Positions 339-26,922 of a stretch of DNA of 64,000 bases are shown piece by piece. A program made the position numbers and the translations under genes. Position 1 is the stretch's first letter. Every line of letters starts with the position of its first letter. The DNA comes from Escherichia phage EJP2: the sequence record OQ411014.1. One strand, 5' to 3'. The notes beneath the pieces are model-generated. The model made no database searches. It had not been told where the DNA came from and was given only the letters and a program-made list of their open reading frames with translations.

Positions 339-971
339 TTATAGGATTACATCTCCCCATTTAGCTGCTAGACGAACTGCTTCATAATCTTGTGCTGCAT
401 CAATTGCAGAACAGATTTCTTGTTCAGTGTCAAACAAGCCGTCACGATACAAGGAAATTTCCAAGTATAGTGCTTTGATTTCAGCAGCAGACATTACTAC
501 ATCATTTCCTGATTTATCACGAATAGAAAGACTTTCAATGCTTGGGTCTACTAGTAATTCAATTAGCAAACCTTGAAGTTCAAGTCTACCTTCACTAGAT
601 AGGTCAAATACATTCAAATCTTTTTCGTATTCAGATGTTGCGAGATAAGAACGATGTGCTTCAACACGTTGTTTCATCTCTGCACGAACGATTGCCAAAT
701 CCATTGGCTTGTAGGTATAGGTATTAATGATTTTACCTTCTACATCATCCATCACAACTTCTTTTTTCTCAAATTCGCAGAACTCACCAGTACCGACATA
801 ATTATCTTCTTGAATCCAAAAACCGTGAGTTAGACGCCCTTCGGCGTCTAACTTGGTAATGTCTCCAATAGTATAACCAGATACTAATGAACGTTGTCCT
901 ACGGTGGAACTTGTATATTTCACGAATTCCCATTGGTCGAGTTCGTTCTTGTTAACTACTACATAAACCAT
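339..971 (-). CDS. Hypothetical protein (210 aa), downstream of the giant fibre gene; possible fibre-associated protein
   Basis: ORF with strong RBS (AAGGAGATAAATCAA-ATG); no recognisable motif. Confidence 0.5.
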   Translation of the reverse strand: MVYVVVNKNELDQWEFVKYTSSTVGQRSLVSGYTIGDITKLDAEGRLTHGFWIQEDNYVGTGEFCEFEKKEVVMDDVEGKIINTYTYKPMDLAIVRAEMKQRVEAHRSYLATSEYEKDLNVFDLSSEGRLELQGLLIELLVDPSIESLSIRDKSGNDVVMSAAEIKALYLEISLYRDGLFDTEQEICSAIDAAQDYEAVRLAAKWGDVIL

Positions 972-995: not shown

Positions 996-3900
996 TTATA
1001 CGTTACGTTGTGCAATAAACACGTCAATGGTAGAACCTACACCGCTGTATACTAACTGACAGATAGATACAGAGTTTGGAGTGGTGTTAATCGCAGTATC
1101 AGCACCAATCACACTATATGGAGGTGGTAGAGTTAGCGAGTGGTTACCAGTTGCGTCTTGTGTTACATATACGAACCAAGAACCTGCATATCCTGGGGTG
1201 ATTGGTAGGTTACCAACGGTAGTATCACCTGTTAGGGTAATGTTATACACGTTAGAAGTACCATCAGGAGTCCAAGTACCAGTTGCAGAAGCAGCCGGAG
1301 CAGCTTTAACTAGGTATTTGCTAGTACTTACCGATTCAGTTACTAGGTCGCCGATATCAGCAGTTAGTGTACCAGTTACTGTTAGGTTGTTAGCATTAAT
1401 TGTACCAGTACTATCAATATCAACAGCAGTTACTTTACCAGTGAAATCGGAGGTTCCAGATACAGTAAGGCTTGTAGCAGTGATTGCACCTGTGGTTACA
1501 GCAGCTAAGGTAGAAGTACCAGTTACTGTTAGAGTATCAGTTTCTAGACCGCCAGTAATTGCAGCACCATCAGCACTAACAGTTAGTTTACCACCAGTAG
1601 TTAGTGTAGTACCTACGCTCGCCGCAGCAGAGAAAGTAGCAGTACCAGTGCTGGATAGAGTACCAGTTACTGTGGTTGCACCAGTAATTGCAGCACCATC
1701 AGCACTAACAGTTAGTTTACCACCAGTAGTTAGTGTAGTACCAACTGTTGCAGCACCAGTAACTTCAAGAGTTACACCTTTCAAGAAGGAAGTGGAAGTA
1801 ACAGATTGTGCAACTAGATCAGAAGTACTTTGGTCTAGTGTACCAATGATACGACCATTAACAGTAAAGTCACCAGTACAAACTGCGTTACCGTTAAGCT
1901 GTAGGTTGTTGTTTACAGAACCACTTGCACCGATAACAGCAGAGTCAATTGTTGCTTGACCTTTAACTTCGAGTGTAGTACCAACAGATACCGCTTGGGA
2001 AGTTGTTACAGACCGTGGAGAAATATCACGACCAGTTAAGTCGATTTGAGCAGTGATAGTACCATCAACATCCAAGTTACCTGTGATGTGGGTGTTACCA
2101 GAAATCTCAGCAATATATTCTTCTTCGTCCCATACTAGAGTACCTACGTGTAGGTTTGTGGTAGAGGTCTTCTTGAAAGAAGCGGTTGCAGTTGCAGCAC
2201 CGTTCTGTGCGATATTACCAGCAGTTACTGTTAGGTCACCAGTAGTAATTGTTGCACCGTTATCAGAAGTTACAGAACCAAATTTACCTGCACCTGAAGC
2301 AGTGATTGCACCACCTAGGGTTGTTGCACCAGTAGTTACGGTTAGACCGTTATCAGAGGTTACAGAACCAAATTTACCTGCACCAGTACTGGTTAGAGTA
2401 CCACCAACAGTTGTGTTGCCAGTTACACCTAGTGTAGTACCAACAGTTGCACCAGCAGCAGTAGAAACACTATTAACAGATAGGTCAGCACCCGCGAGGT
2501 TTAGACCACCAGCAGGAGTGAATGTACCATTAACGGTCATGTCACCAGTTGCTACCGTGTTACCTGTGATATCTAGTGATGCTAGAGTTGCTTTACCTGA
2601 AGTACTTAGAGTACTAACAGATGTTGCATCAGCAGTTACATCAGCTAGGGTAGATGCACCAGTTACATTTAGTGTAGTACCGATATTTGCACTGTTTAGA
2701 GTTGCTAGACCAGAAGTACTTACAGTACTTAGGGAAGTATTACCAGATACACCTAGGGTTGTAGTAACGCTTGCAGCGTTCGCATTGACAGTTCCTAGAG
2801 TAGATACGCCAGTTACTTCTAGAGTAGTGTTAACTTTAGCACCGTTTAGTGTTGCCAAACCAGTAGTCGTTAGTGCATCAGTAGTTACATCAGCTAGGGT
2901 AGATGCACCAGTTACATTTAGAGAACCACCAACAGTTGTGTCGTTAGTACTGGATAGTGTTAGTGCACTTAGGTTAGTTGCACTTAGGTCGAATTGACCA
3001 TCAACAGTCAAATCACCAGTTACATGAGCGTTACCGAGAGAGTTAAGAGACTTAACAGTTACATCAGTTGTGCTTAGGTCGATTGCTCCAGCAGTTAGTG
3101 TACCAGTTGCATGGAAATCACCAGTTACGTTGGTAGATTTAGCAAGTTGTACAGTAGTTCCAGCAGTTGTAAAGGAAGCAGCAGATACAGCACCAGTTGC
3201 GGATACAGATGAAGCACCAATTGCACCAGCAGTTACACCAGCAAGAGTAGTTTCACCAGTTACTGCTAGAGTACCAGAAGCAGTTACATCAGCCAGGGTT
3301 GAAGCGGCAGATACAGTTACAGCACCTAGAGTTGCTTCGTCGCTTGCTAATTTAGGGAATGTATTTGTTTTAGCAGCATCAGTAGATACAAAACTTAAAG
3401 CAGTTACATCAGCACCAGATAAGTCAACAGTACCAGATACAGCTAGGTTGCCACCGATTGTTGCACCTTCAGTAGTCGTAATAGACTTGGAAGCAATATC
3501 AACAGAAGATAGGTCAAAACCACCAACTGGGGTAAATGTCCCATTAACTGTTAGGTTTTTATCAGCAACAACATCACTTGCTAGAGTTACTGTGCCAGCA
3601 CCAAGTGGAGCAGCTTGAACAGTTGCGGATTCTACCGAAGCACCTTTAACAATACCAGTTGCAGTAATGTTTGTTGCAGAGATATCACCAATGGATTCAA
3701 TACCGCCATTAGGCTTGAAAGAACCAGTTACAGTTAAGTCTTTTGCAGCGACTGCATTACTTGCCAATGTTACTGTACCAGCACCAGCAGCAGCACCTTG
3801 AATAGATGGAACAGTTGCAGTTGCAGCACTTACATCACCAGTTGCAGCGAAAGATACAGCACTGATATCACCAGTTGCATCAATATCACCAGCATTTACA

Positions 3901-6605
3901 GTACCAGCAGTGATGGTAGTACTAGATAGAGTTGGGATGGTGCTTTGTGCAACAGTTGCAGTAATAGATTTAACATTAATATCCGCAGCACTTAGGTCGA
4001 ATGTACCGTCAACAACAAGGTTTCCACCAACGTTTACGTTACCTGTAGTGGTTACAGATGCAGCATCAACAGCAGTAGTACTTAGGTCAATTGAAGCTGG
4101 GGTTAGAACACCAGAAATAGTTACGTCATTTGCAAAAGTGGTATTACCAGTAATGCTTGGAACAACTAATGAATCAGCAGTTACTGAAGCTAATGTTGAA
4201 GCACCAGTTACGCTTAGAGATGCAGCAGATGCAGCACCGATTGCAGAAGCACCAGTTACATTTAGAGAACCACCATTAACTTCACCAGTTGCAGTGACAG
4301 AAGCAGCAGTTACAGCACCAGTTGCCGCGACAGATTCAGCAGAAACGCCAGCAGTTGCTACAACAGAGTTCGGTGCGATATCAAGACCGTCAACGTTTGC
4401 AGCAGCAGTTACACCAGTAGTAGTACCAGTTACAACTAGGTCTTTAACAGTTACAGTTTGACCATTAACAGTTACGTTACCACCAATTGTTGCACCAGCA
4501 GTTGCAGTGATTTCACCTGTTACGCCTAGAGTACCACCAACAGTTGCGTTGCCAGTTACAGCAGCGTTACCACCTACAGATAGATCAGTACCAACAGTAG
4601 TGGTGGTTACAGATTCTAGAGTATTACCATTAAGGGCAGCAGTTGCTACAACAGAGTTAGGTGTTAGGTCTTGACCACTAACATCAACAGTTAGACCAGT
4701 TACAACACCAGTAAATTCAACATCAGCAAGAATTGATTTACCATCAACTTTTAGTTGTGGTTGTGCAGTACCGATAGTACTGTTACCTTGGATGTGAACA
4801 TAATCCATAGTGGATTTGCCTAGTGCAGTTAGACCAGCAGTACCACCAACGTTACCAACAGATGCGTTCTGTAGTAGTGCTTTATCAGCTACAAGGTCAG
4901 AAGTTGCGATTTTGTATGGTTCGATGCTGGATTTGGTGTCGCTTGGGCGAGCCGGATCGTTATATGCAAATTGTAAAATACCGTGGTTACCAGATTCGCC
5001 ATCAATAACGTTTAGAGTACTAAAGTTAGCGATTGAAGTTCTTGCACCAGTTAAGTTACCAGATAGAGTTAGGTTTTGTAGAGTACTTGGACCAGAAACA
5101 TTTAGAGATGTTGCATTAATATCAGTAAATGAAAGACCAGATACTGCACCAGTAATAATCAAATCACCAACTGTGGTTTTTTGTAGTACTGTATCACCAG
5201 TTACTTCTAGTTTTGGTGTTGCTTCACCAATAGTACTGTTACCAGTAATGCTTAGGTAATCAATAGTTGCTTTACCTAGTGCTTTTAGACCAGCAGTACC
5301 TGCTACATCACCAACTTCAGCAGCTTTAAGAACAGCTTTGTCAGCTACTAGATCAGAAGTTGCCATTTTGTATGGTTCGATACTTGATTTTGTGTCATTT
5401 GGACGAAGTGTGTCATTATAAGCGAATTGTACAATGCCGTGGTTTCCAGCAGTACCGTCATCAACAGTAAAAGTACTGAAGCGTGCTACTGAAGAGTTAC
5501 CACCAGTTAGGTTGCCACTCATGTTAACGCCAGCTAGAGTTGATGCACCAGATACGTTTAGAGTTGCTACGTTTAGGTCAGTGAATGAAAGACCAGATAC
5601 TGCACCAGTAATTGTTAGGTTACGAACTGTAGTATCTTGTAGTACTGATTTACCAGTTACTTCTAGGAAGTTATCAGCAGTACCAATAGTACTGTTACCA
5701 GCAATTTTTAGGTAATCGATTTTTGCATTACCGAGAGCGTGTAGACCGTGGTCATCGCCACCACCAACAACACCAACGGTTGCTACGTCAGTTTGGATAT
5801 CGTTGGTATCAATTTCTTGAGTACTAACTTTGTACGGCTCAAGGCTAGTTTTGATATCAGAAGGACGTAGTGGGTCGTTATATGTGAACTGAACACTACC
5901 AGTTTGACCGGAAACACGATATTGGTTTACGGATACAGTACTGTTTGCACCAGTTACGTTACCTTGGATAGTAGTTGCACCTTTAATGTTTACGTTGTTA
6001 AGATCACTTAGTGTTTTAACTTCGATGTTATTGAAAGTACCAGCATCCATAGTGTAAGTGCCACTTAGAGTACCATTGATTTCCACATCACCTAGTGTTG
6101 TTTTGCCAGTTACGTCTAGAGTACTGTCAAGTACTGCTGCACCTTTAGCATGTAGGGCTTCAGTAGTTGTACTACCTAGAGCTACAGTACTAGTTGGTTC
6201 AGTAGAAAGATTGCCATTAACTTTTGCATTACCAGATACGGTTAGGCTATCAGCAGAAGTTTCTTTAAATGAAGCACTACCAGTAGTTTGAGTAATATTT
6301 GAATTAAAAGTTGCTTCGGCATCAACAGCCAAAGTACCTTTAACACTTACTGTATCAGTTAGAGCGTCACCAAGAACGGTATTACCAGATACGTTAAGAT
6401 TTCCGAGATTAGAAGTACCAGTACTTGTAATGTCAGCGAATTGAGCAGAACCCGTCACTGTGATAGCAGTGAATGTGGCATCTGCGAAAGAAACAGTGCC
6501 TTCTACAGAAAGATTTTGCTTGAATACAGCATTACCCTTCAATAGTAGGTCTTTGTCAATCGTTGCTCCACCGAGAACGCCTAGATCAGTTTTAATTGAA
6601 TACAT
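996..6605 (-). CDS. Giant fibrous repeat protein (1869 aa), T/G/A/S/V-rich; putative tail fibre or adhesin
   Basis: Long ORF with GGAGGG RBS; T4-late-like motif upstream; internal ~153-aa tandem repeats (QF-x-YND-x-x-RP-x-D-x-K-S-x-EPYK three times) and many shorter repeats; low-complexity beta-rich composition typical of fibres. Confidence 0.75.
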   Translation of the reverse strand: MYSIKTDLGVLGGATIDKDLLLKGNAVFKQNLSVEGTVSFADATFTAITVTGSAQFADITSTGTSNLGNLNVSGNTVLGDALTDTVSVKGTLAVDAEATFNSNITQTTGSASFKETSADSLTVSGNAKVNGNLSTEPTSTVALGSTTTEALHAKGAAVLDSTLDVTGKTTLGDVEINGTLSGTYTMDAGTFNNIEVKTLSDLNNVNIKGATTIQGNVTGANSTVSVNQYRVSGQTGSVQFTYNDPLRPSDIKTSLEPYKVSTQEIDTNDIQTDVATVGVVGGGDDHGLHALGNAKIDYLKIAGNSTIGTADNFLEVTGKSVLQDTTVRNLTITGAVSGLSFTDLNVATLNVSGASTLAGVNMSGNLTGGNSSVARFSTFTVDDGTAGNHGIVQFAYNDTLRPNDTKSSIEPYKMATSDLVADKAVLKAAEVGDVAGTAGLKALGKATIDYLSITGNSTIGEATPKLEVTGDTVLQKTTVGDLIITGAVSGLSFTDINATSLNVSGPSTLQNLTLSGNLTGARTSIANFSTLNVIDGESGNHGILQFAYNDPARPSDTKSSIEPYKIATSDLVADKALLQNASVGNVGGTAGLTALGKSTMDYVHIQGNSTIGTAQPQLKVDGKSILADVEFTGVVTGLTVDVSGQDLTPNSVVATAALNGNTLESVTTTTVGTDLSVGGNAAVTGNATVGGTLGVTGEITATAGATIGGNVTVNGQTVTVKDLVVTGTTTGVTAAANVDGLDIAPNSVVATAGVSAESVAATGAVTAASVTATGEVNGGSLNVTGASAIGAASAASLSVTGASTLASVTADSLVVPSITGNTTFANDVTISGVLTPASIDLSTTAVDAASVTTTGNVNVGGNLVVDGTFDLSAADINVKSITATVAQSTIPTLSSTTITAGTVNAGDIDATGDISAVSFAATGDVSAATATVPSIQGAAAGAGTVTLASNAVAAKDLTVTGSFKPNGGIESIGDISATNITATGIVKGASVESATVQAAPLGAGTVTLASDVVADKNLTVNGTFTPVGGFDLSSVDIASKSITTTEGATIGGNLAVSGTVDLSGADVTALSFVSTDAAKTNTFPKLASDEATLGAVTVSAASTLADVTASGTLAVTGETTLAGVTAGAIGASSVSATGAVSAASFTTAGTTVQLAKSTNVTGDFHATGTLTAGAIDLSTTDVTVKSLNSLGNAHVTGDLTVDGQFDLSATNLSALTLSSTNDTTVGGSLNVTGASTLADVTTDALTTTGLATLNGAKVNTTLEVTGVSTLGTVNANAASVTTTLGVSGNTSLSTVSTSGLATLNSANIGTTLNVTGASTLADVTADATSVSTLSTSGKATLASLDITGNTVATGDMTVNGTFTPAGGLNLAGADLSVNSVSTAAGATVGTTLGVTGNTTVGGTLTSTGAGKFGSVTSDNGLTVTTGATTLGGAITASGAGKFGSVTSDNGATITTGDLTVTAGNIAQNGAATATASFKKTSTTNLHVGTLVWDEEEYIAEISGNTHITGNLDVDGTITAQIDLTGRDISPRSVTTSQAVSVGTTLEVKGQATIDSAVIGASGSVNNNLQLNGNAVCTGDFTVNGRIIGTLDQSTSDLVAQSVTSTSFLKGVTLEVTGAATVGTTLTTGGKLTVSADGAAITGATTVTGTLSSTGTATFSAAASVGTTLTTGGKLTVSADGAAITGGLETDTLTVTGTSTLAAVTTGAITATSLTVSGTSDFTGKVTAVDIDSTGTINANNLTVTGTLTADIGDLVTESVSTSKYLVKAAPAASATGTWTPDGTSNVYNITLTGDTTVGNLPITPGYAGSWFVYVTQDATGNHSLTLPPPYSVIGADTAINTTPNSVSICQLVYSGVGSTIDVFIAQRNV
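4600..6000 (-). repeat. Three in-frame tandem repeats of ~459 bp (~153 aa) inside the 1869-aa fibre gene
   Basis: Protein repeats (QF-x-YND..RP.D.K.S.EPYK ... GNSTIG ... ITGAVSGLSFTD) three times; DNA landmarks at ~4911, ~5368 and ~5829. Confidence 0.75.
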
Positions 6606-6664
6606 GTAATCCCTCCATTGGATTGTTAATAAGGAACACTTTTCCTGAGCTATGTTATTTCTTA

Positions 6665-6672
6665 TATTTATA
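6665..6672 (-). promoter_or_regulatory. T4-type late promoter motif TATAAATA on minus strand (giant fibre gene)
   Basis: Plus-strand TATTTATA = minus-strand TATAAATA, ~60 bp upstream of start 6605. Confidence 0.5.
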
Positions 6673-14554: not shown

Positions 14555-16840
14555 ATGAGTCAAACTTTCATTCAAATCTTCACCGATACTGAAAACTTTG
14601 CACAGAGTCTTGGTCATCGTTATATGTCTATCGACCATCTTTCAGTAACCGTGCTACAAATTCCTAGCATCATTGAAGCGTTGAATGCAATGTCTCTCGA
14701 TGCGGAACAAATCCAAGAACGTGTTCACCAGTACTTGAAAAGTGCTAACATTCCAGAGATTCCACAGAGTACGATGGAAGCTATTGGTGAAGATCGTGCG
14801 GCTATGAGCATTCAAATGTCTCGTATCATGGCTGAACTAAGCAAGAAAGCTGTACTGGAACAATTGAAGACTGATGATTATACTATTGCTCCGTACTTTG
14901 TACTTTTTGAATGTTTGTCCTTCCCTAATACTGCAATTGAAGCAGTACTGGAAGAATTAGGAACAACTCGTACTGAAGTGGCTCGTTCTCTTCAGAAACA
15001 TGTTGAACAAGTTGAACCATCAGTAGAACTAACTAAAACTTTCCAAGAACCGACTAAAGAGGGTAAACGAGTGGCACAACAACCACAGTCCAAGTCTAAG
15101 GGTATTGAAGATTACACCACTAACCTGACAGAAAAAGCTCGTAATGGCAATCTTGACCCGATGATTGGTCGTACCAAGGAACTCCAGAACCTAATCGAGA
15201 TTGTTTCTCGTAAGAATAAAAAGAATGCGTGTCTGACTGGTGAACCTGGTGTTGGTAAAACTCAAATCATTGATGGTTTGGCTCAAGCAATCGCTGATGG
15301 GAATGTTCCAGAGCATTTACAAGGTATTGAGATTCTTTCTCTGAACATGGGTGCGTTTACTGCGGGTACTAAGTATCGTGGTGAGTTCGAAGAACGTGTT
15401 GATGATTTCTTGAAAGAATTGAAAACTCGTGATAACGTAATCGTATTCATTGACGAACTACATACTATCATGGGTGCAGGTTCCAACAGTTCTGGTTCTA
15501 TGGATATGAGTAATCTTATCAAACCAGCACTATCAAGTGGTGAAATCCGTGTTATCGGTGCAACTACTTACGAAGAATATCGTAAACACATTGAGAAAGA
15601 TGGTGCACTAGCACGTCGCTTCATGAAAGTTGATATTGTTGAACCTTCTTTCAGTGAAACTCGTGAAATTGTACTCGGCGTTACCAGTACTTATGAGAAG
15701 TTCCATGAAGTTTCTTTCAGTGAAGCAGCAATTGAAGCAGTACTGAACCTGTCTAACAAGTTCATGAAAAACAAGCGTTTCCCTGACAAAGCACTAGATC
15801 TTCTTGATGCAGCAGCGGCAATGAAACGTACTCGTGGTGAAGACGATAATATCGTTCAAGAATCACACATCCAAGAAGTTGTGGCACGCATTGCTAACCT
15901 GGATATTTCTGTGGTAGCATGTAACGAAAGCGAACGCATGTCTAACCTACCAAATGCACTACGTTCTCGTGTATTCGGTCAAGATGATGCAGTTGAAAAA
16001 CTGGTTGATAACGTAATGGTTGCTCGTGCAGGTCTACGTGATAGTGCGTCAGTACAGGGTGCGTTCATTTTCCAAGGGCCGTCCGGTACTGGTAAAACTG
16101 AAATCGCTAAAGCACTTGCTGATGCAATGGGTTCTGAACTAATTCGTTTCGATATGTCAGAGTTTGCTCAAGAGCATACTGTATCCAAACTAATCGGTTC
16201 CCCTCCAGGTTATGTTGGTCACGAATCCGGCAACGGTCTACTGTTAGACAAAGTAGAACAATTCCCGAACTGTGTCCTGCTTCTGGATGAAATTGAAAAG
16301 GCTCACCCTAACATTCTACTAACCTTTCTACAGGTTCTAGATGAAGGTCGTCTAACTGGCTCTCAAGGTAAAACAGTATTCTTCAATAACGTAACTGTTA
16401 TCATGACTACTAACCTAGGTGCTAAACAAGCAGAAGTTCGTGCAATCGGTGGTTCCGGTGGCGACGATGGTATGGACAAAGCACTAAAAGCGTTCCTCCG
16501 TCCAGAGTTTCTAAACCGTATCGACAGTGTTGTGAAATTCAAAGAACTATCTGCTGAGGCAATTGATTCTGTAATCACCAAGTTCATGGCTTCTCTGGAA
16601 GAAACCGTTGCACCTAAAGGTGTTACCGTGAAACTAACTACCGAAGCACGTGCATGGTTGGCTAAGAATGGTGTTCAGGTTGGTATGGGTGCACGTCCAA
16701 TGAAACGTACCATCGAAAAACACATTCGTGTCCCACTAGCTAAAGAAATGCTTTGTGGTTCTCTACAAAATGGTGGTTCAATTACGTTTGACGTGATTGA
16801 TGGAACTCTAGGTGTAAAATCCAAACGTTCTAAAAAATAA
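14555..16840 (+). CDS. ClpA-like class-I AAA+ unfoldase (761 aa)
   Basis: Clp N-domain; NBD1 Walker A GEPGVGKTQI and Walker B VIVFIDELH; NBD2 Walker A GPSGTGKTEIAKALA, Walker B VLLLDEIEKAHPNI, LIGSPPGYVGH, sensor-2 GARPMKRTIE; no ClpB-type middle domain; own sigma70-type promoter and terminator. Confidence 0.9.
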   Translation: MSQTFIQIFTDTENFAQSLGHRYMSIDHLSVTVLQIPSIIEALNAMSLDAEQIQERVHQYLKSANIPEIPQSTMEAIGEDRAAMSIQMSRIMAELSKKAVLEQLKTDDYTIAPYFVLFECLSFPNTAIEAVLEELGTTRTEVARSLQKHVEQVEPSVELTKTFQEPTKEGKRVAQQPQSKSKGIEDYTTNLTEKARNGNLDPMIGRTKELQNLIEIVSRKNKKNACLTGEPGVGKTQIIDGLAQAIADGNVPEHLQGIEILSLNMGAFTAGTKYRGEFEERVDDFLKELKTRDNVIVFIDELHTIMGAGSNSSGSMDMSNLIKPALSSGEIRVIGATTYEEYRKHIEKDGALARRFMKVDIVEPSFSETREIVLGVTSTYEKFHEVSFSEAAIEAVLNLSNKFMKNKRFPDKALDLLDAAAAMKRTRGEDDNIVQESHIQEVVARIANLDISVVACNESERMSNLPNALRSRVFGQDDAVEKLVDNVMVARAGLRDSASVQGAFIFQGPSGTGKTEIAKALADAMGSELIRFDMSEFAQEHTVSKLIGSPPGYVGHESGNGLLLDKVEQFPNCVLLLDEIEKAHPNILLTFLQVLDEGRLTGSQGKTVFFNNVTVIMTTNLGAKQAEVRAIGGSGGDDGMDKALKAFLRPEFLNRIDSVVKFKELSAEAIDSVITKFMASLEETVAPKGVTVKLTTEARAWLAKNGVQVGMGARPMKRTIEKHIRVPLAKEMLCGSLQNGGSITFDVIDGTLGVKSKRSKK

Positions 16841-16846
16841 GAAAAT

Positions 16847-16875
16847 AAAAAGGAGCCTTTCGGCTCCTTTTTTTT
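16847..16875. terminator. Bidirectional hairpin terminator after the ClpA-like gene
   Basis: AAAAAGGAGCC-TTTC-GGCTCCTTTTTTTT; also terminates the convergent 3337-aa gene. Confidence 0.75.
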
Positions 16876-19800
16876 ATTTGATTAATCCAATAAGAATTAC
16901 AGGTGCAATATCCAAACTATCAGAATAAGTACTCAATGGGATTGGTTCATAACCATCACCGTATACTGCAATTTCATTAGTGTTACCTAAATTCAATCCA
17001 GTACTGGTATACGTTACATCCTTTTCGTAATAATTCTGAACAGTACCGTTATAAGCTCGAACAACGAAGTTGTTTTTGCGAACAAGCATTTGTTCTGCAT
17101 TAGATAGGATAATATCGTCAGGTACAACACCAGGCATTGTAGCGATACCATTTTCATAGGTCATGGTGCTTGCCATCTTCGGCTGACTTACGTGAGTGAA
17201 GCTGTCAAACATTGACTTATAAACAACAGTAACAGTACTGTTAGTGTTAATATACACACCATCAACTAGTGGTTTACTATAGATCCAAGAACCATTGTTA
17301 GCAGTAGGGTTAATTTCAGCTACATCGTATTCAAATACTGAAATTTCCAACGCGTCGGTCATTTTAGTACGAACCAATTCACTTAGTACACCTTTACCGT
17401 ACACTGGTAGGTAATATCCATTATCAACCACAGTTCCATCTTCTAGTGTTTGTGTCTCATTAGTACTGTACCATACATCATAGTCATTGGTAGTTAGTTC
17501 TGGTTCATAATTACCACCAATTAAGGAAGTGTCATAGAACACATCATAATCTAGAGCATCGACTCTGTAAGAACGGTTATTAGTATAACGAGTAATTCCA
17601 CCAGCACTAAACTCTGGGTCATTGAAAGATGTAACTCTAACAATGTTGATACTAGTTGGTTTGTTCTGGTTGTAAAGTGATTCATCAGTACTGTTATAAG
17701 TACTAGTGAAAGTTAATCCACCAATAGTTACAGTATTACCAGATACCGAAGTTACTTTAAACAACTTAGGACGATTAGCATCTTTAATTGTTGCTACACT
17801 CAATACAGTTTTCCAAGAACCATCGTTAATAGCGACTGCGTAATCTGAATTGTCTGGGACAAATACAGCTACCGTTTCGCCAACAACGAAATCATTATCA
17901 CCGTCAAGTTCAACAACACCACTTACTGAAGTTACGTTCTTAATACGATATGAATATTGAATTTCATTCTTTTCCAAAATGCTTCTATTCATGTATTCAA
18001 GAGCAACATCATAACGTGGAATACTTACAAGGGCTTCTGAGCGATTATATGGGTTTTGTACGATATAACCTTCAATATTAAAGTTACCTTGATCACGTAA
18101 TTGTGTCTGTACTGAAGTATCAAATCCATATCCATCAACTGTGAATCTTAGCTGTGCCATATCACGTTTAGATGGGTTAAGTTCTGAAATGTCTACAAAT
18201 ACAGGATCGTTAGTACTGTTAGCGACACCAACAACGGAGTTAATAATAGTTTTAGTTTGTGATTCTAGAGCTAAGTTATCGAATGCGTTTTTATCATCAA
18301 AGAATACTTCTTTATTCAAGCCTGACATGATTTGTAAGAAATCACTATATAGTGGGTTCTTATCATCTTCTGGAACGTCATCAAGTGATGGTTGGCTTAG
18401 GCGAACCATATCCCCATCAGTGATATACACTTCTTCCATATATTCTTCTATGCCAACATTCGAAGGAATGCTATAATCTTTTCCTGGAGTAGTTTCACTC
18501 ATTAGGAAAACATATTTCCTAGGCATCAACACTACTGCATAAGCATCAACATCAAGATTCTCTAATACTTTCTCTGCTGCACTATACGGGTCAGTTTCAT
18601 CAGGATTATAAGTCCCTCTAAGTGCTGATAGAACGTGTACTGCATCAGTATAGAAACGATTAGATTCTGGATTATCATCAGTTTCAGGGATTACATATTT
18701 CCATGTATATAAACCGTATTCATATTCCATGTACTCTAGAATCTCAATGTGAGAGAATCCAGGGTTTGCTTCCTTAACTTGATCATAAATCAAATCATAC
18801 ATTGGTTTGCTGTAAGAGATATAACCATAGTTTTCACCATTGCTTGCACTAAATCCAAACGGCAACCTTGTGCTTGGGTTATCACTCAGTACTAGACCTT
18901 TAAATGGACAACCTACTTCAGAACCAATAGTTTCATCAGATTTGGAAGTTGTTAGCTTCAAACGGTTTGAAAGCGTGTTGTACTGAACATAGTTGCGTAC
19001 TTCACTAACCGATTCAGATTTCTCTTCTGCTTCTGCAATTACACGATTAAGTGTAGCTGTAAATTCATCAGATGCTTCAACATCATTAATTAGTGTTGCA
19101 TACATTTGGTCTAAACCATATTTCAAACCACTACTAATATTCATGTTCGGATAGTACTGCGTAATACCGTTCATGATTAATGTTTCCAACTCAGCATTAT
19201 TAATTTCAGGGAAAGTATATGCATAACGCTGGAGCATGTAGTGGGAGCCTTTTACAAGGAAGTCACCAGTATTAGATTGGTATTTCTTGTTCACGTTTTC
19301 TAGTGTTGTTATATCTGCCATATCGGAAGATGGTTTGCACTGGAAGTTGTCAAAGTCAAGAATAACATCAATCTCTTGGAAACGGCGGTTTGGTAGTACG
19401 AAGTTATTTGGTAGTGAGCCTACGATTTCCCACTTCTGACTTACATCGTTGAATTGAGCATATTCGTAATCCCAAATATCTTTTTGTGTTTTAACCCAAG
19501 CACCATCAACATAGATATAACCGTTAGGATCTAAATCGTTTAATAGACCGTTGATTTCATCTTCATCAGATGTCTTCTGCTCTATTTGTGAACGGATTTT
19601 AGTTCTGTATGGTTTCACTTCTTCAAAGTACTGTACGATTTCATTTATTAAATTACCATCAGTAGTTGATCTTTGTTGTAGTGATTGGTCTAGACCAATA
19701 ATATAAATGTAAGAGGTTTTGAATACCCAGTCCACGACTTTCTGCTCAGTGTGTACGTACTTAACCATGTCAAATACTACAGTACTTTGTACAGAGTTGA

Positions 19801-22800
19801 ATGAACCTTTGAGTAGTGCTAATGCTGCACGAACGTTTTTCTCATTATTCGTTAATGCACCATCGCTGTTGTATTGTGAGTAGTTGTTATAAAGAACATT
19901 GTTCAATTGTACAGTGCTCTTCTCACGACCAACTGCTACCCATTGAACTTGACCACGTGATTCAGTTTTTTCATATAATGTCCAGACACCATCGGCATCG
20001 GTAATACGAATCAAATCACCAATCTGGTAGTTTTTAGTGTTAGCAATTTGAATGCTTGTTTCTTCGGTATATTCTGATTCTTCATCAAAACCAACACTAT
20101 ACCAATCAGCATAATCCCAGTAGGTTGTCATATCTAATGAAGTACCAAGCTGATCAATATAGTCAGTTTGCTTAATCATAGTATGTTGACCTTCACCACG
20201 ACTCTCTAGAGTGATAGTTACCGCAGTACCAGAAGTACTTGGGCTATTCATCAAGTGAATGTAACCGTTGTCGTCGTAATGCACAAAGTACACACTAGTA
20301 CGGTTTAGTGGTGCTGGTAATGTACCATTAGTATTAACCAGTACTGCGTCATTCTCTACAAATTTGTTTTCATTTGTGGTGATAACCAATTCGTTGTTAT
20401 AAGTTAGTACTTTAAATCCAACTTCGTTCGGGTTCACAGCGTCAGTCTTCTTAAAGAAGATATCATCCATTACTACAGTGTCAGTTGTCATGTTAATATG
20501 CTTGTACACATTGTTTGCTGAATCAACAAACGTCCTACGAGCTTCTATAACGTCCATAAACCATGTTTTGTTTGCACCTAGACCCAAGTCAGTACTTGGA
20601 TAAGATAACTCAACCACGTTGCCGTTTAGGAGGGTTTCTTGAGACTCCAAAGAGTTCCATAGAGAATTCCAAATAGCTGGGTTGAAGTTGTATTCTTCAC
20701 CTTCTTTACAAAGTTGATACTGTTCATGTTTAATAACATCATCATTATTTTCTTTGTAAGAAACAGTCAATATACTCTTATCATCGTTAATGTCGTGCTG
20801 CATATTAGATAGAATAAAAGAATTCTCATCTACTGGGGAGAACCAAGGAACTCCGAGTACTGAAGGATCAGCAATAATGCGAGCAATCTCATTACAAGAT
20901 TTGGTACGATGCTTAACATGTGGAGTATAGATTGTATCTTTAACCCAGAAGTAATACATTGGCACATAAGTGTTAGTACTAGCATCATATTCAACAAAAT
21001 AAGAATAGTTTTCAGTAACTGCTGTACCGGATGGTAGGTAAGTGGTCTGGCCTTTATTTTGTTTTTGTTGTTCAGTGCAATACTGATCCCAGTTATATGG
21101 TTCTACTGGCGATTTAACCCATTCGTACACATCAATACTACCATGTGGAAGGATTTTACCCCAATTATAACGCTTATATTCTAGAGTCTTATTTACATCG
21201 ACGTTCCCATTAGCATCAAGGATTGGACGAGTATAATCCATGAAGAATGCAGAAGAAGTATCCCACCAAACTTCACCAACTTTATCAGAACCCCAAGCTA
21301 GTAATGTTTCACCATCACTATTGTAGGTTGCTGGGTCACGAGTAGAGGTATATGAAACGTTTGACATTGCCACACCAGGGATAATACCATTGATTGGGTC
21401 ATATGTGTTAATATACATCTCAACAACGTTAGTCATGGAGTTGTAGGTACTTGGGCGGTCGAACAACGAACTGTTAGGTGCTAAGTACTCATATTTTTTC
21501 TGAACGTATGCATCTTTCGCTGCTTTAGTACTGAAACGTGGAACGTATTTGTACATTACAGGTTCTGCACCACTGAAATCAAAATCTACAGTACTGTCGA
21601 ATGCAACAACTATAGTATTTGCAGTAACACCATAGAATTGTGTTTCTTCACGTAGGAAATCAGGCATATAACCGGACTCATCAACGAAGAAGTAAGTATC
21701 ACCATTACTTAGTGTAGATGAAGAACTTAATTCTAGTGTTACTTTCTGTGCTGCGTATTGGTCATCAGTAATAATTGGAGTAATTTTCTTCAAAGTGATA
21801 TTGGTTTTAACAATATCATAGATATTCCAGTTATCATTAGAATCCTGAAGAACCCATACAGACGATGGTAGTGTATTGTAATCGGAAGTATACTTAGAAC
21901 GGTCTTCATAAGCAGTTTGTAGGTCTAGAGTAGTGAATGACACTTCATCTAGAGTTACAGGGCCGATATTTGGCAACTGAATGTTGTCAGATGCACCTTT
22001 ACGCATTGGGAAAGAGAACAAACCATGTGGACGAGTAATCCAACGTGGGTCTACACCTGTTTTACCAAAATAAACGATGTTATTTGCAGTACTGTCCACA
22101 GTTGCATTCTGGTCGAATGTAACCAATTGTGGTTGTTGAGCAAATTCGTTGTTAATTAGTTGGAACTGTAGGTTCTTTTTGCCATATACGTTGCCATATT
22201 CACCGATTTTGAAAGCCCACTCTTGTAGTGCTTTGTAACCTTCGGTATTATAGGTTTTTGATACACGTAGAACACGTTCGAGTACTTGATTAGTACCTTT
22301 GTCACGGATGAAGCCTTTATAGAAATCAACGCGGGCTGGTTCTGATGTGATCATTTCGTTTAAGTAACTTCTGGACTGGTATCCAATTAAATGATTCGCT
22401 AGGGAACGCAATTGAACATCAGATACTGGATTTTCAGTGTCATAATAGTGTCTAAAGTCATCTACTAGTTTTTCAAAGTCAGGTAGTGTGCCAGTTTCGA
22501 GGATAATAAAGCCAGGTGCTTCCAAACGACCATTCCATGAGCCAGTTACATAACCGTACATACGAATCAATTCTTGAATTGAACCATAAGTTGGAATATA
22601 GATGTTATCACCAAAAATAGTTTTATCATCAAACACGATAGCATGTTCATAAGCGATTAAGCTCAAACGAATAAGAGCAATACGCTTGTTGTATTCTTCT
22701 AAACTACGAACAGTGATGATGTTACCGATACGTGCAGTTTCAATTTCATACGGACGAATACCTGTATTATTATCATCTAGTAGAGTCCATAGACCACCAC

Positions 22801-25800
22801 TATATTGTGCAACTGATTCAACAGAACCAAAAGACGCACCGAATTTAACACTTTTAGTACTTGGAGAACAAGAAATATATTCACCACGAGCTAGAGCAGT
22901 CTGACTCCAGTTCAAATAATCCTTCGCAATTTGATTCCAGTTTAGAGTGTTGCCGTTCTCGTCAGTTTCTTCGAAAATAAACCCAACACGTTCCAAATAT
23001 TCACCATAAGCACACAAGAAAGTGTAAACTTCTTGGAAAGAATTCAGTACTGTACCGTATTCAATACTTTGAACTTTATCAGTGTACTCATTGTAATGAA
23101 CTACTGTACGATTACCTTCACGAATAGTAACACGCTTACCATTACGGTTAGGAGTTAAGTATTTGAAGGATGCACCAACTAGATCATAACCAGTAATCTG
23201 ATATCCAGTGCCGTTCCATGTGATATCAACAGCACTCATTGATTCTTCACGGATGGAAGAGCTACGAACTAGACCGATATGTTGGTTTTCTTGAGAAATT
23301 AGACCGAATGTATCAGAATAAAAACTCAATTGGTCTTCTTTACTGAATCCACCAAGTTTATGACCCACATTAATATGTGAACTACGTAAAACGTCACCGT
23401 ACTTAGTAGTAATATCCATTTGTTTGTACTGTAGGTGATCAGTTATGAACATTTGGTATCCTAGGATACGGCTATTGTTCTCATTGTTCACTAGTGTAGT
23501 ACTGTTTAGGTTCAAACGTTGGTTGGTTTCACCAAATAGGAACTGTTCTTTACCACGATAAACTGTTTTAAGAGTACTACCACGAGTATCATAGAAATAG
23601 TTTGCAAACTGTGCTGGTTTAGCACGATATAGTAGTAGAGCTTCATCATATGGGAACATTGCAGTGTTGCGGTAAGTGAATTCAATATCACCCATGTCAC
23701 CATAAGACCACGGTTCTGCACGATGATCAAGGGAACCAGCCACTAAACCTAGAACTTCTGGAGCAATCAGTTCAAATGTGCGAATTTCTTCACCATCTGC
23801 TGTGAAATTACCAGTACCTTTAATAACGAATGGCTGTTTACCAAAACGTTTGTATTTTGCATAAGTTCCTTTGTTCTTACCATATAGAATTGTACCAGTA
23901 CTAGCGTCACCTTTAATACTACCAACATCCCATAGACCACTTGGTACTAATTGGTTGTTTTCATCAATAACTTCAGCTTCATACACGTATACAACTTCAG
24001 TTGGGTCTTCACCAATACGAATTTTGGTTGGTTCATATTCTTGGTTCCACCAAGATGGGCGTTGAGCAAAACCTAACATTTCCCACGGGTGGGTTGCTGG
24101 GCGATATGTACCGAACATGTCACTATAAATTGCTCTCCATGAGCCACGTGCTGGAATATCGGTAACAACGCCATCAACAACATAAGTTGTTCCTTTGTAG
24201 TTCCAAGTTAACCAGTTATTTGCATCATAATCATGTGTACTGTTATCAATACCGTTAGTTGCGATGAAGTTAGTGTAACCACGTAGTAGAAGTGTTTGCT
24301 TCTCGTCACGAGTATAGTCAGTTTCAGTAAAATAAGGAGTCGGGAATAGATCACTCTGAACAAGTTCAGGTACATAATCAATATCTTTGAAATCATTATC
24401 AATACTGTTGAAAATACGGTTTTCTAGTTCGTAAATCACATCATCCATACGACCTACACCATTCAGTACTTTATACGCCTTGGTAATTGTACCAGTATGG
24501 CTTACGTTATAACAACCTAGGTCACGACCAGCATACATATAAGTCGCTTTCTGTGGAGCGTACGCTTTTAGAATACCAATAAACTGTGGAGTCGGTGGAA
24601 TGAAGGCACGAATGTTAGAACTGGAACTACCCATCGCATCAATGAAGAATGGGAAAGTATTATTCTTACCAACGTTAATATTATTAAGAATTGCGTCAAC
24701 AATATTAGATGCACTGTTGGAAGTGAATGCAGATGGATCTTCATTGTACATATTAACCATTTGAGTATTGAATTTGTTCATGAAACGGAAGTATTCAGAT
24801 TGCATAAATTCAATTGCAGCAAATAGGTCAATATTTTCATTCGCTGTGTTAATCATTAGTGGAAGCATAGATGCTTCGTTCTGGATAATCTTAGTACCGA
24901 CAGAGTTATCAACTAGACCTTTAGCAAGACGTTCTTCGTAGTCGTTAAAATCATTTACTGTACCAGTAGTGATGTTACGTTGAATAATTTCTTGGAAATG
25001 TGGTGTATATAGACTTTGATCAATATAAGTGATAAAATCATTATACGGGTTGTTCTGTAGGTTGATTGGAATTTCATAAGAACCCAAGTTAGTATCTGGT
25101 GTTTGTACAGGACTGTAAGTTCTGATTTCAACAATGCTATCATCGGTTAGTTTGATAGAACTATCTAGAGTTATAGATTCAACAAGACCATTTTTATCCA
25201 ATTTAGTACTGAACTTTGTGGTTTCTTCTGTACCAACACGCACATAAAGTACATCTGTGCTTGATGATAGGTTGACACGTTGAGCTAGTTCAAATGTGTG
25301 GTTAAAAAGTTCAGATGGAACGTAGTCATTACCAGCTTCACGATGCCAGTCCATAAAAGTACTGTTATCTGCTTTGTAATATTTGAATGTTGCATCAATA
25401 TCCATTACATAAGCGTACATATTTTCAATTGGATTTTGGAAATTATTCATCTCTTGTACAGTACTGAATACATTGTACATAGAGGTTTTGGTCATAGCAG
25501 GAACTTGACGAACATACTGTTTGGTAAATTCATCGCTACGATCCCAGTCTGATTTTAGATTTACTGAACCGTCAGAACCAATTACGTTATAGTAATACAA
25601 ACCAGAAATTTCAGTAGTTGCTCCAACTTTATCATAATCATAACGAGTACTCTGAATGAAGTTCTCGAAAACATAATAGTTGTAAGAGTTCAATTCAACG
25701 TTAGTGTTATAGATTTTATTGTAGTTGTAGTCAAAGTTAACTTTAAGGCCAAATAGTGGGGAACCTTTAAAAGAACTACTTGGGTAAATTTGAGGATCGT

Positions 25801-26887: not shown

Positions 26888-26922
26888 TTTATTCTCCATA
26901 AAATTCATTTCTTCATTTGTTT

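What the first reader, a model, noticed from the sequence alone, without database searches (positions are those of the whole stretch)
996..6605. 1869-aa fibre protein built from in-frame tandem repeats that could vary in copy number
Three ~459-bp repeats (about 4600-6000) and several shorter repeated blocks (for example ~1540-1760 and ~2220-2400) make up much of the gene. Repeats of this length and identity are substrates for recombination that would lengthen or shorten the fibre. The C-terminal ~100 residues are non-repetitive and look like a distinct tip domain.
Basis: seen in the sequence. Interest (0 to 1): 0.45.

Follow-up and report, generated by a model that had tools for sequence, protein, structure and literature searches.

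The report
Modular jumbo-phage long tail fibre
This is the long tail-fibre gene of the jumbo E. coli phage EJP2, built from in-frame duplicated modules whose number differs between related phages; it is a tidy but ordinary example of how phage fibres change length.

Summary
The ORF is real: 996..6605 on the minus strand, 1869 aa, identical to WEM33283.1 of Escherichia phage EJP2, a Rak2-like jumbo myophage. GenBank's name for it, 'flagellar hook-length control protein', is wrong.

The repeats are discrete and in frame. There are three 152-154-aa modules (window 4656-6029) and four two-copy duplications of 61, 50, 30 and 43 aa, together about 44% of the gene. The last ~119 aa form a non-repetitive beta-sandwich, Pfam PF26209 (Phage_phiTE_241_C). 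A DUF4376 fibre chaperone gene lies directly downstream.

The recombination idea is partly right. The 456-bp modules are only 56-69% identical in DNA. All full-length sequences of the >=90% cluster carry three, and the truncated one keeps the two it covers. Homologues carry 1, 2 or 3, however, and the middle module is a chimera of its neighbours, the signature of a one-unit tandem duplication.

The 129-bp repeat holds a 62-nt exact match. One near-identical metagenomic contig lacks exactly one copy (3.7x coverage, possibly an assembly artefact). Another carries an 18-nt in-frame duplication there.

The tip domain is not hypervariable. The finding is a new member of a known kind, of low to moderate interest.

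The parts
996..6605 (-). Long tail fibre gene, 1869 aa plus stop. It is identical to WEM33283.1 of Escherichia phage EJP2.
6030..6605 (-). N-terminal domain, aa 1-192, conserved in the jumbo-phage orthologues and presumed to be the baseplate-attachment end. aa 47-185 give a weak match to the unit profile, so this may be a degenerate 'unit 0'.
   Evidence: 41-64% identity, full coverage in jumbo orthologues; E 1e-3 to 1e-5; marginal Bactofilin hit
5568..6029 (-). 152-aa-type module A (aa 193-346, 154 aa)
5112..5567 (-). Module B (aa 347-498), a chimera. Its first ~2/3 resembles C (up to 0.89 nt identity) and its last ~1/3 resembles A (0.71-0.86). This is the product of a one-unit tandem duplication.
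4656..5111 (-). Module C (aa 499-650), orthologous to the last module of the 2-unit orthologues
1356..4655 (-). Shaft, aa 651-1750. It is made of degenerate short beta-strand repeats with marginal Bactofilin/beta-helix hits and holds the nested tandem duplications listed below.
3435..3800 (-). 61-aa tandem duplication (aa 936-996 and 997-1057). One copy is absent from P0003, P0005, P0006 and P0010.
2568..2867 (-). 50-aa tandem duplication (aa 1247-1296 and 1297-1346). A 39-nt exact repeat (2634-2672 and 2883-2921, offset 249) overlaps this area.
2244..2423 (-). 30-aa tandem duplication (GAGKFGSVTSDNG motif; aa 1395-1454); TRF period 90, 81% matches
1491..1748 (-). 43-aa (129-nt) tandem duplication (aa 1620-1705) with a 62-nt exact repeat at 1552-1613 and 1681-1742. 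This is the site of the -129-nt variant (L003) and the +18-nt variant (L004) in ~99%-identical relatives.
999..1355 (-). C-terminal beta-sandwich tip domain (aa 1751-1869), Pfam PF26209 Phage_phiTE_241_C
6665..6672 (-). T4-type late-promoter motif TATAAATA, 59 nt upstream of the ATG. The RBS GGAGG lies at 6612-6616.
   Evidence: read directly from the sequence; function inferred
339..971 (-). 210-aa DUF4376 protein, 24 nt downstream of the fibre gene. It is a Tfa/Mu-U-type tail-fibre chaperone, probably retained on the virion.
   Evidence: PF14301, 36.9 bits against a cut-off of 25; CBB_225 orthologue at 68.5% MS coverage (PMC5259590); DUF4376 role from PMC7882524, PMC10579305
300..325 (-). 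Hairpin plus T-run after the chaperone gene, the likely terminator of the fibre-chaperone transcription unit
   Evidence: sequence read; inferred

Best explanation
The gene encodes the long tail fibre of the Rak2-like jumbo myophage EJP2.

Architecture. A conserved ~190-aa N-terminal domain comes first and is presumed to anchor the fibre to the baseplate. Three tandem 152-aa modules follow, then a ~1100-aa beta-helical shaft of degenerate short repeats, and finally a ~119-aa beta-sandwich tip (PF26209). By homology with the phiTE long tail fibre, the protein is probably a trimer. A late promoter motif lies upstream. The next gene encodes a DUF4376 chaperone that probably folds, and stays on, the tip.

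Origin of the repeats. They are products of in-frame tandem duplication, by unequal recombination or replication slippage between neighbouring copies. The third 152-aa module arose from a one-unit duplication in a two-module ancestor. The 61-, 50-, 30- and 43-aa duplications lengthened the shaft further.

What is shown and what is inferred. Shown: the anatomy, homology, synteny, copy-number differences among relatives, the chimeric middle unit, and the two length variants among ~99%-identical sequences. Inferred: trimeric state, which end binds the baseplate, receptor binding by the tip, the physical length (roughly 120 nm, about 10 nm per module, scaled from the 512 A predicted for the 793-aa phiTE fibre), and any effect of length on host range.

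Current variability. The old 456-bp modules are now too diverged to vary often. The young 129-bp duplication, with its 62-nt exact match, is the plausible present-day hot spot.
For: Identity and context. The protein is WEM33283.1 of phage EJP2. Flanking DNA is 77-80% identical to the Hallingskeid and Munch jumbo phages. The gene is syntenic with Munch gp252, Hallingskeid CDS0438 and CBB_226. It matches PHROG 4549, tail fibre. Neighbours are a gp15-like sheath stabiliser, baseplate wedge and hub. CBB_226 and CBB_225 are in virions (PMC5259590).

Homology to a solved fibre. 9cuy_g (phiTE) matches at E 3e-32 with the single sequence, 3.9e-49 with the unit profile and 5.4e-41 with the C-terminal profile. 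The phiTE LTF is a baseplate-bound trimer (PMC11972413).

Repeats.

Duplication history. Unit counts of 1, 2 or 3 are seen. The chimeric unit B is shown. Indels against orthologues coincide with the repeats. P0002 and P0003 have 90%-identical flanks but 3 versus 2 units. P0020 units 1 and 2 are 82-87% identical, a separate and younger duplication.

Recent variants. L003 lacks exactly one 129-nt copy, bounded by the 62-nt repeat. L004 (16x coverage, 236-kb contig) has an 18-nt in-frame tandem duplication in the same repeat.

Chaperone. DUF4376 scores above Pfam's cut-off.
Against: - No experiment places this protein on the EJP2 virion or ties it to the LPS receptor reported for EJP2 (PMC10213699).
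- The N-terminal domain is not homologous to the modelled phiTE N-terminus. PF26208 occurs only in the CR3/phiTE-type proteins, so baseplate attachment is by analogy.
- The -129-nt variant comes from a 3.7x-coverage SPAdes contig that also carries a frameshifting 20-nt aberration in the same gene. A 62-nt exact repeat is just what an assembler can collapse.
- Only four sequences exist in the >=90% cluster. Scans of IMG/VR and JGI metagenomes found no more close relatives.
- The tip domain is not more variable than the shaft, which is unusual for a specificity determinant.
Confidence: 0.75

Rival explanations
1. The repeats are fixed structural architecture. They are ancient duplications kept because the fibre needs them, with no meaningful copy-number change today. 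On this view the short variant in L003 is an assembly artefact, and the 2- versus 3-unit difference among relatives reflects whole-segment exchange between phages (mosaicism) rather than local duplication or deletion.
For: - The units share only 56-69% nt identity and at most 29 nt of exact match.
- The three full-length members of the >=90% cluster keep three units, and truncated P0040 keeps B and C.
- L003 has 3.7x coverage and another aberration in the same gene.
- The gene is clearly mosaic: identity between the same two proteins jumps from 90% to 57% between regions.
Against: - The chimeric structure of unit B is the direct footprint of a local one-unit duplication.
- P0020 has an independent, younger duplication at 82-87% identity.
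- L004's 18-nt duplication sits in a 16x, 236-kb contig and cannot be an assembly collapse.
- A 62-nt exact in-frame repeat is well above what codon shuffles give (maximum 17 nt).
Confidence: 0.3
2. The protein is a virion fibre but not the receptor-seeking baseplate long tail fibre. For example, it could form the ~119-nm 'whiskers' seen along the tail of the relative CBB, or a fibre stowed along the sheath with a structural or triggering role. Module number would then track tail geometry rather than host range.
For: - In CBB the baseplate fibres measure only ~29 nm, while the tail 'hairs' measure 119 +/- 10 nm and their genes are unassigned (PMC5259590).
- A 1553-1869-aa fibre scaled from phiTE would be about 100-120 nm.
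- The phiTE homologue contacts the sheath initiator and is proposed to bend back toward the capsid (PMC11972413).
- The tip is conserved across phages with different hosts.
Against: - The phiTE homologue is baseplate-anchored.
- A dedicated tip chaperone of the Tfa type is typical of receptor-binding fibres (PMC7882524).
- GAP32 has the orthologue but is not described as hairy (PMC5259590).
- No direct data exist for EJP2.
Confidence: 0.15
3. The GenBank annotation is right and the protein is a flagellar hook-length control (FliK-like) protein.
For: Only the name attached to WEM33283.1 and to some homologues in CMSTMSU.
Against: - No FliK/Flg_hook hit in Pfam or NCBIfam.
- The gene sits in a phage tail module, is homologous to a cryo-EM-located phage fibre, and has an orthologue in virions.
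- The name is most likely a low-complexity artefact.
Confidence: 0.01

Closest known systems
Pectobacterium phage phiTE long tail fibre (PDB 9CUY/9MJN chain g, 793 aa; Pfam PF26209 Phage_phiTE_241_C) and the CR3/KaOmega-type ~1072-aa fibres
   Same: It shares the 152-aa module placed right after the N-terminal ~180 aa, a beta-helical shaft of similar short repeats, and a homologous C-terminal beta-sandwich.
   Different: phiTE and CR3 have one module and this protein has three. Their N-terminal domain is different (PF26208, present there and absent here). They are 2.4 and 1.7 times shorter respectively. phiTE is flagellotropic and LPS-independent, whereas EJP2 needs LPS (PMC11972413, PMC10213699).
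Orthologues in Rak2-like jumbo phages annotated 'long tail fiber (proximal subunit)': Munch gp252, CBB_226, GAP32, Hallingskeid CDS0438
   Same: They share the same locus, the same N- and C-terminal domains and the same chaperone gene downstream. CBB_226 is proven to be in the virion.
   Different: They carry two modules and lack one copy of the 61-, ~38- and ~30-aa repeats, so they are 1495-1560 aa against 1869 aa. Overall identity is only 35-52%.
T4 long tail fibre proteins gp34 and gp37
   Same: These are also long fibres built from serially repeated modules. Tandem duplication of a small gp37 segment is a classic route to expanded host range (Tetart et al. 1996, as cited in PMC3157838 and PMC6957217).
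   Different: There is no detectable sequence similarity to the gp34 chains in the PDB, and no gp35/36/37-like partners are adjacent. Here one polypeptide appears to span from baseplate end to tip, so the 'proximal subunit' label is not supported.
Mu U / P2 G-type tail fibre assembly proteins (DUF4376) and Alteromonas phage V22 'chaperone caps'
   Same: The gene immediately downstream carries DUF4376 and its orthologue stays in the virion, as with TfaMu and the V22 cap (PMC7882524, PMC10579305, PMC5259590).
   Different: The N-terminal half of the 210-aa protein is specific to this phage group. No binding or folding experiment exists.

Membership tests
phiTE gp241-type tail fibres (PF26209 family) | C-terminal Phage_phiTE_241_C domain at the very end of the protein | tested here: met
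   Precomputed PF26209 is recorded for the 99%-identical cluster members. The C-terminal profile hits 9cuy_g residues 638-793 at E 5.4e-41. The local Pfam copy lacks the model.
phiTE gp241-type tail fibres (PF26209 family) | A ~150-aa conserved module starting near residue 175-200 | tested here: met
   The unit profile hits 9cuy_g residues 182-337 at E 3.9e-49. In 1.84 billion representatives only 48 clusters match, nearly all starting at aa 173-203. This protein has three copies.
phiTE gp241-type tail fibres (PF26209 family) | N-terminal PF26208 domain (the helical bundle that binds wedge and sheath initiator in phiTE) | tested here: not met
   PF26208 is recorded only for the CR3-type hits, not for any jumbo orthologue. 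No alignment of aa 1-200 to 9cuy_g was found.
phiTE gp241-type tail fibres (PF26209 family) | Homotrimer attached to the baseplate | not testable with these tools
   Only monomer AF2 was available. The phiTE LTF is a trimer by cryo-EM (PMC11972413).
T4 gp34 long tail fibre proximal subunit | Sequence homology to gp34 | tested here: not met
T4 gp34 long tail fibre proximal subunit | Followed by hinge and distal half-fibre genes (gp35, gp36, gp37) | tested here: not met
   The next gene is a 210-aa DUF4376 chaperone followed by a terminator-like hairpin.
FliK flagellar hook-length control protein (GenBank name) | Flg_hook / FliK C-terminal domain | tested here: not met
   No hit in Pfam or NCBIfam.
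Copy-number-variable in-frame tandem repeat locus | Unit length a multiple of 3, with long exact matches between neighbouring copies | tested here: met
   All offsets are in frame. There is a 62-nt exact match at the 129-nt repeat. The 456-nt units share only 29, 17 and 14 nt.
Copy-number-variable in-frame tandem repeat locus | Length polymorphism among near-identical genomes | tested here: inconclusive
   The -129-nt variant (L003, 3.7x coverage) could be an artefact. The +18-nt variant (L004, 16x) is robust. Only four sequences are available, and none varies in the 456-nt units.
DUF4376 tail fibre chaperones (neighbour gene) | PF14301 above the gathering score, encoded directly downstream of the fibre gene | tested here: met
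   The protein scores 36.9 bits against a cut-off of 25, over residues 95-199. The intergenic gap is 24 nt.

The most novel reading that the evidence does not exclude
The young 43-aa duplication about 45 residues upstream of the tip domain (window 1491-1748) may be a live recombination and slippage hot spot. It would create heritable fibre-length and tip-geometry polymorphism within natural EJP2-like populations, working as a bet-hedging device for host range in the way the gp37 duplications do in T4. Separately, the number of 152-aa modules (1, 2 or 3) may be tuned to tail length in jumbo phages, because each module docks on the sheath when the fibre is stowed.
Probability: 0.12. Interest if true: 0.5.

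Novelty: new member of a known kind. Interest (0 to 1): 0.27.

Why it matters
The result corrects a misleading database name. It gives a domain map for the main fibre of a phage proposed for biocontrol of resistant E. coli. It identifies the chaperone that would have to be co-expressed for any engineering of the fibre.

The chimeric middle module and the natural -129 and +18 nt variants give a concrete, testable example of how phage fibres change length by in-frame tandem duplication. The principle itself is long established for T-even and other phages, so the finding adds detail rather than a new concept.

Tried and rejected
- Self-BLASTP returned only the identity hit. I replaced it with my own diagonal scan.
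- TRF did not report the 456-bp array because identity is below ~70%. The repeat finder did report it.
- The local Pfam copy has no PF26208 or PF26209 model, so only marginal Bactofilin hits appeared. NCBIfam gave nothing.
- The search for more close relatives failed. IMG/VR by protein found none, and an exact 32-nt probe of the 62-nt repeat found none in JGI metagenomes or IMG/VR.
- A bootstrapped NJ analysis, meant to decide whether the third module of EJP2 and of P0002 is one shared event or two, timed out. Identity comparisons leave that open. Each middle unit is closer to last-type units than to the other middle unit, but the gene is mosaic.
- The phiKp24 and RaK2 fibre papers were checked and describe different (depolymerase) fibres. 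RaK2 gp098 is only a positional analogue.
- The promoter and terminator consensus scan was not above shuffles. The late-promoter motif was read by eye.
Full report
WHAT IS THERE

The interval 996..6605 is one ORF of 1869 codons on the minus strand. The protein is identical to WEM33283.1 of Escherichia phage EJP2, a 349-kb phage. The rest of the window is 77-80% identical in DNA to Rak2-like jumbo myophages such as Erwinia phage Hallingskeid and Salmonella phage Munch.

The gene is not closely matched in DNA by any record of the phage collection. [quoted passage not shown] Identity is 35-52%.

The conserved neighbourhood runs as follows: gp15-like tail sheath stabiliser, NUDIX, three small genes, a 372-aa tail protein, a 293-aa virion protein, the fibre, a 210-aa protein, a 640-aa virion protein, then thymidylate synthase. 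The baseplate wedge, the hub-lysozyme and a 3344-aa virion protein lie further along. The best PHROG match is a tail fibre family (E 3e-204). CBB_226 and its neighbours were detected in purified CBB virions by mass spectrometry (PMC5259590).

GenBank calls the protein a 'flagellar hook-length control protein'. No Pfam or NCBIfam model supports that name.

CHECK OF THE OBSERVATION

A diagonal scan of the protein against itself gives one dominant off-diagonal at +152 residues and a handful of short ones. The three large units are:
- A: aa 193-346, window 5568-6029
- B: aa 347-498, window 5112-5567
- C: aa 499-650, window 4656-5111

The period is 456 bp. Unit A is 6 bp longer. Pairwise BLASTP E-values are 4e-44 (A/B), 3e-63 (B/C) and 7e-33 (A/C).

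The units are well diverged. Identity is 47-63% in protein and 56-69% in DNA, and the longest exact runs are 29, 17 and 14 nt. TRF did not report the array for that reason.

- 43 aa x2 at window 1491-1748, containing a 62-nt perfect repeat. This is the longest exact direct repeat in the gene; codon-shuffled controls reach at most 17 nt.
- 30 aa x2 at window 2244-2423 (TRF period 90, 81% matches).

Two further duplications exist: 61 aa x2 (3435-3800) and 50 aa x2 (2568-2867). Together the discrete repeats cover about 44% of the gene. The remaining shaft is a T/G/V/A/S-rich field of degenerate short motifs, which give marginal Bactofilin (beta-helix) hits.

THE TIP AND ITS CHAPERONE

The last ~119 residues are non-repetitive and conserved in all 37 homologues that have this C-terminal domain (E 1e-13 to 1e-43). 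The precomputed Pfam label is PF26209, Phage_phiTE_241_C. An AF2 model built on 25 sequences is confident (pLDDT 90) and is a six-stranded beta-sandwich.

[quoted passage not shown] Foldseek against BFVD finds 217 matches at E <= 1e-3, and those listed are mostly C-termini of phage fibres. It is therefore a widespread fibre-tip fold.

The domain is not hypervariable. It is 50-63% identical in jumbo orthologues, like the rest of the protein, and stays at 42-56% in the most distant homologues. [quoted passage not shown] It remains an inference.

The gene 24 nt downstream (339..971) encodes a DUF4376 protein that scores above Pfam's cut-off. DUF4376 is the conserved domain of Mu-U/Tfa-type fibre chaperones, which act on the fibre's C-terminus and can remain bound to it (PMC7882524, PMC10579305). 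Its CBB orthologue, CBB_225, is in virions at 68.5% sequence coverage (PMC5259590).

A T4-type late promoter motif (TATAAATA, 6672-6665) and a GGAGG ribosome-binding site precede the fibre gene. A hairpin with a T-run follows the chaperone gene. The pair looks like one late transcription unit.

RELATION TO A SOLVED STRUCTURE

The only PDB relative is chain g of 9CUY/9MJN, the 793-aa 'putative tail fiber protein' of Pectobacterium phage phiTE (E 3e-32). The unit profile matches its residues 182-337 (E 3.9e-49) and the tip profile matches residues 638-793 (E 5.4e-41).

In the phiTE paper the long tail fibre is a trimer bound to wedge 2A and the sheath initiator. Only residues 14-171 are modelled. 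The rest is predicted to be a very extended beta-helix, 512 A long in total (PMC11972413). That chain g is this LTF is my inference, since it is the only modelled fibre with a beta-helical sequence.

The N-terminal ~190 aa of the EJP2 protein are conserved among jumbo orthologues but are not homologous to the phiTE N-terminus. PF26208 occurs only in the CR3/phiTE group. Scaling by residue count suggests about 120 nm for this fibre, about 10 nm per 152-aa module and about 3 nm per 43-aa copy. These figures are rough.

DO THE REPEATS CHANGE IN NUMBER?

(i) Across the family they do. A profile of the unit finds only 48 clusters among 1.84 billion representatives. The unit almost always starts at residue ~175-200. 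The 400-1100-aa fibres have one copy and most jumbo orthologues have two, including Munch, Hallingskeid and CBB. Three copies occur in the EJP2 cluster, in P0002 (67% identical, 1861 aa) and in P0020 (2120 aa).

(ii) The mechanism left a footprint. Unit B resembles C over its first two-thirds (nt identity up to 0.89, shared indels). It resembles A over its last third (0.71-0.86, including the 29-nt exact run encoding ITGAVSGLSF). This is what a one-unit in-register tandem duplication, or unequal crossover, in an A-C ancestor produces.

(iii) There has been more than one event. P0020's first two units are 82-87% identical, a separate and younger duplication. P0002 (3 units) and P0003 (2 units) are about 90% identical in the N-terminal domain and first unit and 84% in the last unit. 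Whether the third unit of EJP2 and of P0002 is one event followed by a loss, or two separate gains, could not be settled. The gene is also mosaic. For example, P0002 and P0003 drop from 90% to 57% identity between adjacent regions, so exchange between phages contributes too.

(iv) The other length differences between EJP2 and the 2-unit orthologues fall on the internal repeats: exactly 61 aa, about 38 aa and 8-26 aa.

(v) Among near-identical sequences the picture is mixed. The >=90% cluster has four members. The three full-length ones (the window, P0001 and P0041) keep three 152-aa units, and the N-terminally truncated P0040 keeps units B and C. L003 (P0040) lacks exactly one 129-nt copy, with the junction inside the 62-nt exact repeat. 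L004 (P0041) has an 18-nt in-frame tandem duplication (TLTTGG to TLTTGGTLTAGG) inside the same repeat. L004 is a 236-kb contig at 16x coverage, and a duplication cannot be an assembly collapse, so that variant is solid. L003 is a 3.7x contig with a frameshifting 20-nt aberration elsewhere in the gene, so its deletion may be an artefact. No further close relatives were found.

INTERPRETATION

It is documented here over evolutionary time. It is overstated for the 456-bp units as present-day recombination substrates, because they are too diverged. A 29-nt exact match does still offer a low-frequency route back to two units.

The realistic current hot spot is the 129-bp duplication near the tip. 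The 'tip domain' is real and belongs to a described Pfam family. Its role in receptor binding and the functional effect of fibre length are untested.

Tandem duplication in fibre genes as a route to altered host range is long known (Tetart et al. 1996, as cited in PMC3157838). The protein, its family and a homologue's position on the virion are also already in the databases. I therefore rate this a new member of a known kind, of low to moderate interest.

Noticed in passing
window 996-6605 (-): The GenBank product name for this protein (WEM33283.1, phage EJP2) is 'flagellar hook-length control protein', and homologues are variously called 'autotransporter', 'colanic acid-degrading protein' and 'YadA domain protein'. 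None of these names is supported by a profile hit. They look like low-complexity artefacts.
   Followed up: yes
window 339-971 (-): The 210-aa DUF4376 protein directly downstream is a likely Tfa-type fibre chaperone. Its CBB orthologue is abundant in virions (68.5% MS coverage), which suggests a chaperone that stays on the fibre tip.
   Followed up: partly
window 6030-6605 (-), aa 47-185: The N-terminal domain gives a weak match (E 1e-3 to 1e-5) to the 152-aa unit profile in several orthologues. It may be a strongly diverged 'unit 0', so the array may originally have been longer.
   Followed up: no
window 996-6605 vs P0002, P0003, P0007: The fibre gene is a recombination mosaic. P0002 and P0003 are 90% identical in the N-terminus but 57% in aa 651-1000. 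P0002 and P0007 are 91% identical in the tip but 61% in the adjacent shaft.
   Followed up: partly
L005 (phage CBB) 3257-7918; PMC5259590: CBB's unexplained tail 'whiskers' measure 119 +/- 10 nm, while its baseplate fibres are only ~29 nm. The 1553-aa orthologue of this fibre would be about 100 nm long if scaled from phiTE, so it is a candidate for the whiskers, perhaps as fibres stowed along the tail.
   Followed up: no
window 16874-26908 (-): A 3344-aa ORF matches PHROG 10938 ('virion structural protein') end to end. It sits between the sheath-stabiliser region and the baseplate wedge gene. Its function is unknown.
   Followed up: no
window 14555-16840 (+): A 761-aa ATP-dependent (Lon-like) protease gene sits on the opposite strand inside the tail/baseplate module.
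   Followed up: no
L003 2530-3000 (ENA ERZ794976 NODE_382): In this 99.5%-identical contig the fibre ORF is broken. A 32-nt stretch replaces 12 nt near gene nt 664, a net +20 nt and a frameshift. This is either a low-coverage assembly error or a natural fibre pseudogene.
   Followed up: no
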